The notes below the pieces were generated by a model. It searched no databases, was not told the DNA's origin, and was given only the letters and a program-made list of their open reading frames with translations. Of a DNA stretch of 32,000 bases, positions 11,728 to 12,816 are shown piece by piece. A program made the translations under genes and the position numbers. The DNA comes from Candidatus Thorarchaeota archaeon. Lineage in GTDB: Archaea; Asgardarchaeota; Thorarchaeia; Thorarchaeales; Thorarchaeaceae. The first letter of the stretch is position 1; the number at the start of each line of letters is the position of its first letter. The stretch covers positions 120,001 to 152,000 of the forward strand of contig SHMX01000006.1 of the NCBI GenBank assembly GCA_008080745.1, written 5' to 3'.

Positions 11728-12816
11728 ATGATTAAAATGCCAAAAGTTGCTGTTGTCAAGACGAGTCCAAAAACAATAGATGAGGACATCGCACGTTTAT
11801 TGGATTTAGCAGAATACGATAAACACGTTGACAAGGATGTTGCTACCTCTATCAAACTAAATTTATCGTGGAGTAAATTTTATCCCGCCTGCTCAACAAA
11901 TCCATACATTTTCGATGGACTTCTTAAGAAAATGATTGCAGATGGATTCGCCCCTGAATCAATTCAGGCTGTTGAAAATGAAACAGTTGTTACAAATATC
12001 TGGGCAGGGGTTAAAGGGAACAATTGGTGGCCTGTTATGCGTAAGCACAAAATCAGTTTTCTGCCACTAATTAATGCAACCTACGTTGATGTTGAATTAC
12101 CACAAGAAACACTTGTACTTGAGAAAATTTTTGGTGAAATAATTGCTCCGAAGGAGATTTTTGGTACGAACATCATTCACCTTCCAACAATTAAGACTCA
12201 TGGTCATACACAGATGACAGGTGCTATGAAGGACTCTTTTGGATTATATCTAACTAAGAACAGACATTTGGCACATTTGAAAATACATGAAGTTCTTGTC
12301 GATTTGCTACTACTGCAGCAAACCATATCACATTCAGAGTTTGTACTAACTGATGGAACTGTGATGGGAGATGGAGCAGGGCCAAGAACAATGATACCAA
12401 AGATTGGAAATATTCTATTAGCAACCAGTGACATGGTAGCTGCAGACACTGTCCAGAGCAGACTAATGGGTATTCCATTGCAACTAGTCAAAAAGATACA
12501 AATTGCTCATGAACTGGGCCTTGGTGTTGCAGATCCAGAAGGAATTGAGATTGTTGGAGATTTTGAATCGTTTCAAGATCTACCCAACTTCCATATGCAG
12601 ACGAGTAAAAGTCCGGTTATCACTTGGAACAGAGGTTTTCTCAAATTTCCAGGAATGGAAACTCTACTATTCCGATCTCCCTTAATGTGGTTACCTACTC
12701 AGCTTTCAGGACTTTATCACGATGGTATCTGGTTACCTTTGAAAGGGAAGAAATGGGTCAATTGGTTCTTAGAAGAAACAGAATGGGGTGAGCTCTGGAA
12801 GAGCTATTCAGAATAG
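11728..12816 (+). CDS. DUF362 family protein
   Basis: Motifs IKLNL...STNP, LPTIKTH-x5-TGAMKD-x-FG, DG-x4-DGAGP and SDMVAADTV. It has only one Cys and no ferredoxin motif. The start is ATG 11728 or 11737. Confidence 0.8.
   Translation: MIKMPKVAVVKTSPKTIDEDIARLLDLAEYDKHVDKDVATSIKLNLSWSKFYPACSTNPYIFDGLLKKMIADGFAPESIQAVENETVVTNIWAGVKGNNWWPVMRKHKISFLPLINATYVDVELPQETLVLEKIFGEIIAPKEIFGTNIIHLPTIKTHGHTQMTGAMKDSFGLYLTKNRHLAHLKIHEVLVDLLLLQQTISHSEFVLTDGTVMGDGAGPRTMIPKIGNILLATSDMVAADTVQSRLMGIPLQLVKKIQIAHELGLGVADPEGIEIVGDFESFQDLPNFHMQTSKSPVITWNRGFLKFPGMETLLFRSPLMWLPTQLSGLYHDGIWLPLKGKKWVNWFLEETEWGELWKSYSE

What the first reader, a model, noticed from the sequence alone, without database searches (positions are those of the whole stretch)
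12193..12276. DUF362 protein has LarA-like His/Lys/His spacing: possible nickel-pincer (NPN) C2-epimerase for a lipid-linked sugar
Seen: KTH163-GHTQMTGAM-K173...H188 (numbered from ORF start 11713), only one Cys in the whole protein so a self-contained Fe-S cluster is unlikely, and a Trp-rich amphipathic C-terminus (WLPLKGKKWVNWFLEETEWGELW) suggesting membrane association. Known: in L. plantarum lactate racemase LarA, His174 is catalytic, Lys184 tethers the NPN cofactor and His200 binds Ni, in a H-x5-SGG-x-K context. The spacings here are 10 and 15, versus 10 and 16 in LarA. Inference: a hydride-transfer epimerase that could do the two-step DprE1/DprE2 reaction in one enzyme.
Basis: partly seen in the sequence, partly recalled or inferred. 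Interest (0 to 1): 0.7.

Follow-up and report, generated by a model that had tools for sequence, protein, structure and literature searches.

The report
LarA-like partner of lipid-ribose synthase
This Asgard archaeal gene encodes an uncharacterised protein with the fold and cofactor-holding loop of the nickel enzyme lactate racemase; many archaea and bacteria keep it next to a membrane enzyme that makes lipid-linked ribose, so it probably processes that sugar donor, but its use of the nickel cofactor is unproven and is doubtful in some carriers.

Summary
H163, K173 and H188 (numbered from the TTG at 11713) lie at 12193-12276, the protein has a single Cys, and its C-terminus is Trp-rich.

The protein is Pfam DUF362, a family in the same clan as LarA. 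Its AF2 model (pLDDT 94.7) matches only LarA-family structures strongly (Z 14-16). The H-x5-[ST]G[AG]-x-K loop aligns to LarA H174...K184.

Several defining LarA features are missing:
- It has no equivalent of LarA H108, D72 or R75.
- It has no LarA C-terminal domain.
- It has extra invariant residues of its own: C60, H165, H185, H192, E88/N89, D214 and H336/D337.

The strongest new result concerns gene context. This DUF362 subfamily sits next to a UbiA enzyme of the polyprenyl-phosphate phosphoribosyltransferase type across many bacterial and archaeal phyla. In archaea the neighbourhood also holds a PHP phosphatase, a flippase-like protein and GT-C glycosyltransferases.

The evidence on nickel-pincer (NPN) use is mixed. 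The genome has larB, larC and larE, but also three true LarA homologues. LarC is common among carriers, yet shows no enrichment within one Acidobacteriota class. A DPANN-like phylum has orthologues with an intact triad and no larC in any of 131 genomes.

Verdict: this is a dedicated enzyme of a lipid-linked pentose pathway. An NPN-dependent C2-epimerase remains possible (about 0.15-0.2). The scan has noted the DUF362/LarA idea before on other DNA.

The parts
11737..12816 (+). DUF362-family gene with a LarA-like fold. The ORF is open from TTG 11713, and the likely start is ATG 11737 (359 aa).
   Evidence: Pfam PF04015, 70 bits. AF2 model pLDDT 94.7. LarA-family structures match at Z 14-16. Orthologues begin at M9.
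12193..12276 (+). The flagged motif K161-T-H163-G-H165 ... T169-G-A-x-K173 ... R184-H185-x2-H188. It spans a strand end, a loop and the start of a long helix.
   Evidence: Sequence. Near-invariant in 94 orthologues. Aligned to LarA H174...K184. In many orthologues an intein is inserted exactly between K161 and T162.
12830..13781 (+). UbiA-family enzyme of the polyprenyl-phosphate 5-phosphoribosyltransferase (DPPR/PPPR synthase) type. The ORF is open from 12816, and the likely ATG is at 12830.
   Evidence: PF01040. NCBIfam NF008977 scores 208 bits, just under its 234-bit cut-off. The motif N-D-x2-D-x3-D is invariant in 24 orthologues and matches the PPPRS motif in PMC11127046. It lies next to the DUF362 gene in most loci.
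13787..14458 (+). PHP-domain metal phosphoesterase, the candidate 5'-phosphatase of the lipid-linked ribose-5-phosphate.
   Evidence: PF13263 and PF02811. CehA/McbA metallohydrolase domain. It holds the same position in the Methanolobus, Methanobacterium and Parvarchaeota modules.
14455..15498 (+). Flippase-like membrane protein (LPG_synthase_TM / TIGR00374). Its start overlaps the PHP stop as ATGA.
   Evidence: PF03706, 123 bits. TIGR00374. Overlap read directly from the sequence. Same module in other archaea.
4610..5752 (+). GT87-like multi-pass membrane protein, a possible GT-C transferase that uses the lipid-linked sugar. Whether it belongs to the system is not shown.
   Evidence: PF09594 GT87, 29.8 bits against a cut-off of 25. 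Conserved at the same relative place in the related locus L075.
9131..11632 (+). Three upstream co-oriented genes: an unknown 372-aa protein, a SLOG/LOG-like protein (TIGR00725) and a metallophosphoesterase. They are context only and are conserved only in close relatives.
   Evidence: The order is kept in Thorarchaeota-type loci L075-L083 but not elsewhere.

Best explanation
The gene encodes a cytoplasmic enzyme of the DUF362 family, the sister family of the LarA N-terminal domain. It is the dedicated partner of a UbiA-type polyprenyl-phosphate 5-phosphoribosyltransferase.

Proposed pathway, in order:
1. UbiA joins PRPP to a polyprenyl (dolichyl) phosphate.
2. The PHP protein removes the 5-phosphate.
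3. The DUF362 enzyme converts the ribosyl head group.
4. The flippase-like protein exports the lipid-linked sugar.
5. A GT-C glycosyltransferase uses it as donor.

The LarA-derived crevice is formed by K48/N50, C60-T62, E88/N89, H163/H165, T169-K173, R184-H192 and D214. In LarA this crevice holds a 5-phosphoribosyl nucleotide, and here it is the active site.

My preferred chemistry is a redox-neutral hydride-transfer conversion of a ribose hydroxyl, i.e. epimerisation, as DprE1/DprE2 or the SDR ORF13 do in known systems. The hydride carrier is unresolved. NPN is one candidate (about 0.2 overall).

What is shown: the fold, the conserved residues and the gene linkage. What is inferred: the substrate, the reaction and the cofactor.
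For: Family and fold:
- PF04015.
- LarA-family structures are the only strong structural matches: Z 14.2-16.3, rmsd about 3 A over about 210 residues, with the next unrelated fold at Z 6.

Active site:
- There are 25 or more near-invariant polar residues in 94 orthologues from bacteria and archaea. They sit at strand ends or at the start of a helix in the model.
- In 118 longer homologues an intein sits exactly between K161 and T162. Inteins typically target catalytic motifs (general knowledge).

Linkage to UbiA:
- UbiA lies within 5 kb in 41 of 67 non-Asgard loci, or 30 of 42 with enough flanking sequence. It is directly adjacent in 34.

Wider modules:
- Methanolobus: GT2, GT4, UbiA, PHP, flippase-like, DUF362, GT4, PMT_2.
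- Methanobacterium: UbiA, PHP, flippase-like, DUF362, PMT_2.
- Aenigmarchaeota: STT3, DUF362, PMT_2, flippase-like, UbiA.

UbiA identity:
- It carries the PPPRS motif (PMC11127046) and scores best on decaprenyl-phosphate phosphoribosyltransferase models.

Precedent: known pentofuranose systems add auxiliary epimerases to the lipid-linked ribose (PMC11127046).

Compatible with NPN:
- larB, larC and larE are present in this genome.
- LarC occurs in 94 of 99 Asgard carriers and 46 of 50 Acidobacteriota carriers.
Against: - No residue-level superposition was possible, so placing the conserved residues in one pocket rests on topology and homology.
- The profile-profile alignment to LarA is statistically weak (hhalign E 0.01, probability 4%). 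It does not extend to H188.
- In most bacterial loci only UbiA and DUF362 are adjacent, with no phosphatase detected (PHP within 5 kb in 3 of 67 loci). The partner could therefore be the 5'-phosphatase rather than an epimerase.
- Seven invariant His, one Cys and several Asp/Glu would also suit a direct metal site.
- No lar genes lie near 93 loci.
- LarC shows no enrichment within one Acidobacteriota class: 48/50 carriers against 91/101 non-carriers.
- LarC was found in 0 of 131 genomes of a DPANN-like phylum that includes 9 carriers.
- Among other carriers, 10 of 41 lacked LarC.
Confidence: 0.45

Rival explanations
1. K173 tethers a nickel-pincer nucleotide, H188 binds the Ni and H163 is the acid/base. 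The enzyme then epimerises C2 of lipid-linked ribose to arabinose in one step, replacing DprE1/DprE2.
For: - LarA-like fold.
- The H-x5-[ST]G[AG]-x-K loop aligns to LarA H174...K184.
- The triad is invariant and is shared by DUF362 paralogues in the same genome.
- larBCE are present in this genome.
- At phylum level in Acidobacteriota, carriers that lack LarA have LarC in 21 of 22 genomes, against 25 of 59 genomes with neither gene.
- About 15% of genomes have larBCE without larA, so unknown NPN users must exist (PMC11796402).
- Earlier scan notes place other DUF362 subfamilies beside orphan larBCE operons. These are leads only and were not checked here.
Against: - The DPANN-like phylum has 9 orthologues with an intact triad and 0 of 131 genomes with LarC. 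Five of those carriers had no LarB match and no LarE match over the cut-off.
- Three of 4 Zixibacteria carriers and several other carriers lack LarC.
- The association vanishes within one class.
- LarA features that PMC12611868 names as conserved are missing: the H108-type catalytic His, the ribose-binding Asp and the phosphate-binding Arg/Lys.
- The LarA C-terminal domain is absent.
- No lar genes lie next to 93 loci.
- Whether the product is arabinose rather than another pentose is unknown.
Confidence: 0.17
2. It is the metal-dependent 5'-phosphatase (or another hydrolase) of polyprenyl-P-ribose-5-phosphate. The LarA-derived nucleotide pocket binds the substrate's own 5-phosphoribosyl group, and the invariant His, Asp and Cys hold a metal.
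For: - Characterised PPPR synthases are always paired with a 5'-phosphatase: a fused HAD domain in ORF15 and the adjacent Rv3807c (PMC11127046).
- In bacteria DUF362 is the constant neighbour of UbiA, and PHP is almost never detected.
- Many His, Asp, Glu, Lys and Arg are invariant.
- This model needs no larBCE, which fits the DPANN-like carriers.
Against: - Archaeal modules carry both PHP and DUF362, so one of them would be redundant.
- No phosphatase is known with this fold, and every strong structural match is a LarA racemase or epimerase.
- A DUF362 paralogue pairs with aldehyde dehydrogenase, which hints at carbonyl/alcohol chemistry in the wider family.
Confidence: 0.2
3. It acts before UbiA on a soluble precursor, for example by converting PRPP or another phosphoribosyl compound into the donor that this UbiA uses.
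For: - Tight UbiA-DUF362 adjacency fits a supplier as well as a consumer.
- The protein has no signal peptide or transmembrane segment.
- The C-terminus is not clearly amphipathic.
Against: - Altering PRPP itself is expected to be harmful, and the known systems epimerise only after transfer to the lipid (PMC11127046).
- The UbiA keeps the PRPP-type motif.
Confidence: 0.1

Closest known systems
LarA lactate racemase and LarA homologues (Pfam Lar_N/DUF2088; PDB 5HUQ, 2YJG, 9EIA, 7S91, 9Q3J)
   Same: - Same Pfam clan (PMC11770544).
- Same N-domain fold (Z 14-16).
- Shared strand-end His followed by a [ST]G[AG]-x-K loop, with a His about 15 residues after the Lys.
   Different: - It matches PF04015, not PF09861.
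- It has no LarA C-terminal domain. A conserved helical tail carrying Y-H336-D337 takes its place.
- It has no equivalents of H108, D72 or R75.
- It has extra invariant residues: C60, H165, H185, H192 and E88/N89.
- It occurs in genomes without larC.
- The substrate context is a lipid-linked sugar rather than a 2-hydroxy acid.
Three-component pentofuranose glycosylation systems and mycobacterial DPA synthesis (PPPRS/Rv3806c, phosphatase, DprE1/DprE2 or SDR ORF13, flippase, GT-C; PMC11127046)
   Same: - A UbiA-type phosphoribosyltransferase with the N-D-x2-D-x3-D motif.
- A phosphatase and a flippase-like protein in the module.
- GT-C enzymes in the same loci.
- Room for an auxiliary head-group-modifying enzyme.
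   Different: - The phosphatase is a PHP domain rather than HAD or PAP2.
- The flippase candidate is LPG_synthase_TM-like rather than MATE, SMR or GtrA.
- The auxiliary enzyme is DUF362 rather than a flavoenzyme or SDR.
- The hosts are Asgard, DPANN-like and methanogenic archaea and many uncultured bacterial phyla.
Non-LarA nickel-pincer enzymes (the AKR NphT, PMC13524815; an ornithine cyclodeaminase cited there)
   Same: They show that NPN-type cofactors are used outside LarA, on sugars, with a Lys/His pair.
   Different: - The folds are unrelated.
- Those enzymes were found beside larBCE genes, whereas this subfamily is not.

Membership tests
Pfam DUF362 (PF04015) | Match to the family HMM above the gathering score | tested here: met
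   70.1 bits against a cut-off of 24, residues 47-247. The whole-genome scan finds it again at 71.9 bits.
LarA family (Lar_N PF09861 plus LarA C-domain) | Match to the Lar_N HMM | tested here: not met
   No PF09861 hit at E <= 0.01. The genome's three Lar_N matches lie elsewhere.
LarA family (Lar_N PF09861 plus LarA C-domain) | LarA N-terminal domain fold | tested here: met
   Z 14.2-16.3, rmsd 2.9-4.5 A, 209-254 aligned residues against 9EID, 7S91, 9Q3J, 2YJG, 5HUQ and 4NAR. The next unrelated fold scores Z 6.
LarA family (Lar_N PF09861 plus LarA C-domain) | Lys that tethers NPN (K184) in the S-G-G-x-K loop after the H174-type His | tested here: inconclusive
   hhalign puts H163 on the H174 equivalent and K173 on the K184 equivalent, but with E 0.01 and probability 4%. 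K173 is 93/94 conserved. Whether it tethers a cofactor cannot be tested here.
LarA family (Lar_N PF09861 plus LarA C-domain) | Ni-binding His (H200) | tested here: inconclusive
   H188 is invariant and lies 15 residues after the Lys, against 16 in LarA. The alignment does not reach it, and no coordinates were available for a superposition.
LarA family (Lar_N PF09861 plus LarA C-domain) | H108-type catalytic His, ribose-binding Asp (D72) and phosphate-binding Arg/Lys (R75), listed as conserved in PMC12611868 | tested here: not met
   In the profile alignment the H108 position falls on V93 within the invariant V-E88-N89-E-T-V-V-T. The D72/R75 stretch falls on K48-L-N50-L-S-W-S-K55, where K55 is variable. 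The alignment is weak.
LarA family (Lar_N PF09861 plus LarA C-domain) | LarA C-terminal substrate-binding domain | tested here: not met
   The protein ends after a helical tail of about 65 residues. The best-matching alignments (9EID, 2YJG, 5HUQ) end near LarA residues 294-300, and longer rows reach the C-domain only through the helical tail.
NPN-dependent enzymes in general | The host makes the cofactor (larB, larC, larE) | tested here: inconclusive
   Present in this genome and in most carriers. Not found in the 9 carriers of a DPANN-like phylum, where LarC is 0 of 131.
NPN-dependent enzymes in general | Bound NPN and Ni on the protein | not testable with these tools
   This needs protein mass spectrometry and metal analysis.
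Polyprenyl-phosphate pentofuranose donor pathway (PPPRS-based) | PPPRS-type UbiA with the N-D-x2-D-x3-D motif | tested here: met
   N73, D74, D77 and D81 are invariant in 24 sequences. NF008977 scores 208 bits, just below its equivalog cut-off of 234.
Polyprenyl-phosphate pentofuranose donor pathway (PPPRS-based) | Phosphatase, flippase and GT-C components in the locus | tested here: inconclusive
   PHP and a flippase-like gene follow in the operon. A GT87-like gene lies 6 kb upstream. PMT_2 or STT3 genes are adjacent in other archaea. These belong to different families from the characterised components, and no activity is known.

The most novel reading that the evidence does not exclude
The UbiA-linked DUF362 subfamily is a new single-subunit hydride-transfer epimerase, NPN-dependent where larBCE exist. 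It would turn lipid-linked ribofuranose into another pentofuranose such as arabinose or xylose, doing the job of DprE1/DprE2. That would reveal an unrecognised lipid-linked pentose glycosylation pathway in Asgard, DPANN and methanogenic archaea and in more than ten uncultured bacterial phyla. It would also give the first function for the DUF362 half of the LarA clan.
Probability: 0.17. Interest if true: 0.85.

Novelty: new variant of a known kind. Interest (0 to 1): 0.6.

Why it matters
DUF362 is a large family with no known function. The nickel-pincer field is looking for the unknown users of the cofactor in the roughly 15% of genomes that have larBCE but no larA (PMC11796402).

This work ties one sharply conserved DUF362 subfamily to a specific and testable substrate: the product of a polyprenyl-phosphate phosphoribosyltransferase. 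That gives a concrete assay for a family that had none.

It also points to a widespread and undescribed lipid-linked pentose pathway in archaea, including Asgard and DPANN lineages, and in many uncultured bacteria.

If the enzyme proves to be a one-protein epimerase, it would be a new solution to the DprE1/DprE2 step. If it works without NPN, it would show what the LarA fold did before, or apart from, the nickel cofactor.

Tried and rejected
- **Sequence searches against PDB.** The single protein and the profile both found no LarA. Only fold comparison and a weak hhalign run did.
- **Segment-level hhalign.** Runs meant to decide whether H188 equals LarA H200 gave no usable alignment.
- **Model coordinates.** None were available in the script box, so the "one pocket" distance test could not be run.
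- **Complex prediction of UbiA with DUF362.** The result was no verdict (score 0.00), so it counts neither way.
- **Co-occurrence within Asgard.** Uninformative, because LarC and LarA are nearly universal there.
- **Co-occurrence in Acidobacteriota.** The phylum-level association looked strong but disappeared within one class. I treat it as a likely clade effect.
- **Mislabelled records.** A record labelled Methanosarcinales lay in a phylum of 0.7-1.6 Mb genomes, which I read as DPANN-like from genome size alone. A record labelled Acidimicrobiia lay in Acidobacteriota.
- **LarC neighbourhoods.** In 20 carriers that lack LarA, LarC had no consistent neighbour. The one DUF362 paralogue near LarC (L160) is not conserved there and instead pairs with aldehyde dehydrogenase.
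- **Search for fused forms.** It found only intein-containing versions, with no UbiA or ferredoxin fusions.
- **Supplements of PMC13524815.** They are not held.
- **Amphipathic C-terminus.** The idea was not borne out by the hydrophobic moment.
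Full report
**Observation.** The ORF at 11713-12816 (+) translates to 367 residues when read from the TTG. K161-T-H163-G-H165-T-Q-M-T-G-A-M-K173 and R184-H185-L-A-H188 lie at 12193-12276. There is one Cys (C60) and 11 Trp. Database orthologues start at M9, so the likely start is ATG 11737.

I checked the LarA reference pattern against the solved LarA sequence. It reads H174, then F-F-A-G-F-S-G-G-R, then K184, and then H200 sixteen residues later. 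The bare His/Lys/His spacing appears in 7.7% of shuffles of this protein. With the [ST]G[AG]-x-K context it appears in 0.01%.

Two details need correcting. The C-terminal tail is Trp-rich but not clearly amphipathic, with a hydrophobic moment of at most 0.38. The single Cys is invariant rather than incidental.

**What the protein is.** It is a Pfam DUF362 protein (70 bits). DUF362 and the LarA N-terminal family DUF2088 share Pfam clan CL0471, and the LarA field uses DUF362 as an outgroup (PMC11770544). In this genome the DUF362 model also scores a true LarA homologue.

An AF2 model built from 46 homologues has a mean pLDDT of 94.7. Foldseek's top hits are all LarA-family structures. VIA-align gives Z 14.2-16.3 at about 3 A over about 210 residues, and the next unrelated fold scores Z 6.

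A profile-profile alignment against Asgard LarA homologues is statistically weak (E 0.01). It still aligns K-T-H163 with the H174-type His and T-G-A-M-K173 with the S-G-G-x-K184 loop.

The differences from LarA are substantial:
- There is no Lar_N HMM match.
- There is no His at the H108 position.
- The ribose-binding Asp and phosphate-binding Arg, which PMC12611868 lists as conserved, have no equivalents.
- There is no LarA C-terminal domain. A conserved helical tail with Y-H336-D337 takes its place.

Whether H188 equals H200 could not be decided. No coordinates were available, and the segment alignments failed.

**Conservation.** In 94 orthologues from bacteria and archaea the following are invariant or nearly so: K48, N50, W53, C60, S61, E88, N89, T91, H156, K161, H163, H165, T169, K173, R184, H185, H188, H192, E193, D197, D214, R225, H336 and D337.

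Other DUF362 paralogues in this genome also carry K-T-H ... T-G-A-x-K-N ...

All 118 longer homologues carry an intein with a homing endonuclease and no other added domain. In the example aligned, the intein lies exactly between K161 and T162. This marks the K-T-H motif as the functional core.

**Context.** The downstream genes are as follows:
- A UbiA enzyme that scores best on decaprenyl-phosphate phosphoribosyltransferase models (208 bits against a cut-off of 234). It carries the invariant N-D-x2-D-x3-D motif that mutagenesis showed to be needed in PPPR synthases (PMC11127046).
- A PHP phosphoesterase.
- A flippase-like LPG_synthase_TM protein.

The gene junctions are 14 nt, 5 nt and an ATGA overlap.

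The linkage is old and wide. A genome-collection scan found at least 597 relatives across many phyla. UbiA lies within 5 kb in 41 of 67 non-Asgard loci and is directly adjacent in 34.

In archaea the module grows:
- Methanolobus has GT2, GT4, UbiA, PHP, flippase-like, DUF362, GT4 and PMT_2.
- Methanobacterium has UbiA, PHP, flippase-like, DUF362 and PMT_2.
- An Aenigmarchaeota locus has STT3, DUF362, PMT_2, flippase-like and UbiA.

In this window a GT87-like membrane protein lies 6 kb upstream. This is the layout of the pentofuranose donor pathways described by Kelly et al. (PMC11127046), but with different families serving as phosphatase, flippase and auxiliary enzyme.

**Test of nickel-pincer use.** The genome has larB, larC and larE. 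It also has three true LarA homologues, so the presence of the lar genes explains nothing by itself.

The LarC counts by group are:

| Group | Carriers with LarC | Non-carriers with LarC |
|---|---|---|
| Asgard | 94 of 99 | 74 of 102 |
| Acidobacteriota, phylum sample | 46 of 50 | 62 of 101 |
| One Acidobacteriota class | 48 of 50 | 91 of 101 |
| Other non-DPANN carriers | 31 of 41 | not sampled |
| DPANN-like phylum | 0 of 9 | 0 of 122 |

Among Acidobacteriota genomes without LarA, LarC is present in 21 of 22 carriers, against 25 of 59 genomes with neither gene. This looked persuasive. Within a single class, however, LarC is nearly universal and the difference vanishes, so the phylum-level signal may be a clade effect.

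Three of the four Zixibacteria carriers lack LarC.

In the phylum of small (0.7-1.6 Mb) genomes, which I read as DPANN-like from genome size alone, five carriers were tested further. They had no LarB match at all and no LarE match over the family cut-off. The 94-orthologue set includes loci labelled DPANN, and it keeps H163, K173 and H188.

No lar gene lies within 8 kb of 93 orthologous loci.

Obligate use of self-made NPN is therefore unlikely for the subfamily as a whole. Scavenging from a host by DPANN cells cannot be excluded.

**Most likely mechanism.** The protein is a cytoplasmic enzyme dedicated to the UbiA product, polyprenyl-phospho-ribose, with or without its 5-phosphate. It uses the crevice that in LarA holds a 5-phosphoribosyl nucleotide.

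I favour a redox-neutral conversion of a ribose hydroxyl, by analogy with DprE1/DprE2 and the SDR ORF13. The main reason is that every strong structural relative is a hydride-transfer racemase or epimerase. A DUF362 paralogue also pairs with aldehyde dehydrogenase.

The main rival is a metal-dependent 5'-phosphatase. Known PPPR synthases always travel with a phosphatase (PMC11127046), and the bacterial pairs show no other candidate.

**Novelty.** The papers I could search use DUF362 only as an outgroup to LarA (PMC11770544). No paper in the library links DUF362 to NPN or to UbiA. Earlier notes of this scan (189 of them) propose other DUF362 subfamilies as NPN users beside orphan larBCE operons. 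I did not verify those notes. This subfamily is not beside lar genes. As far as I can see, the UbiA partnership is new.

Noticed in passing
window 12193-12198 (K161/T162 junction); proteins P0121, P0270-P0382: All 118 longer homologues from archaea and bacteria carry a large intein with a LAGLIDADG homing endonuclease and no other added domain. In the one aligned (P0121) the intein is about 520 aa and is inserted exactly between K161 and T162 of the K-T-H motif. The window's own copy has no intein.
   Followed up: partly
window 4610-5752 (+): A multi-pass membrane protein matches GT87 (PF09594, 29.8 bits). GT87 is a GT-C family that uses polyprenyl-phosphate sugars. It lies 6 kb upstream of the module and is conserved at the same relative place in L075. 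It is a possible user of the lipid-linked sugar.
   Followed up: partly
window 9131-11632 (+): An unknown 372-aa protein, a SLOG/LOG-like TIGR00725 protein and a metallophosphoesterase precede the DUF362 gene. They keep this order only in Thorarchaeota-type relatives. They may form a nucleotide-processing unit of unclear relation to the pathway.
   Followed up: partly
L160:7284-8558 (-), L175-L177: A different DUF362 subfamily (about 427 aa, Aminicenantes/Acidobacteriota) is consistently adjacent to an aldehyde dehydrogenase gene. In one genome the gene string continues with a DUF6938 protein and then LarC.
   Followed up: partly
G000 contigs C1, C5, C6, C8 (L013-L017) and C3, C4, C5 (L001-L003): Besides the one studied, the genome holds five more DUF362 paralogues and three LarA homologues. 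larB, larE and larC are scattered on contig 1 and none is adjacent to any of these genes.
   Followed up: partly
window 16587-24467 (-) and 24467-31999 (-): Two tandem giant ORFs (2626 aa and more than 2440 aa) lie directly downstream on the other strand. The first has no Pfam match at all. They could be surface proteins and therefore glycosylation targets.
   Followed up: no
L092, L116 (G366, G367) and L121 (G210): The organism labels of some public MAG records disagree with where the genomes fall. Two records labelled Methanosarcinales lie in a phylum of 0.7-1.6 Mb genomes. One record labelled Acidimicrobiia shares its class with Acidobacteriota genomes.
   Followed up: no
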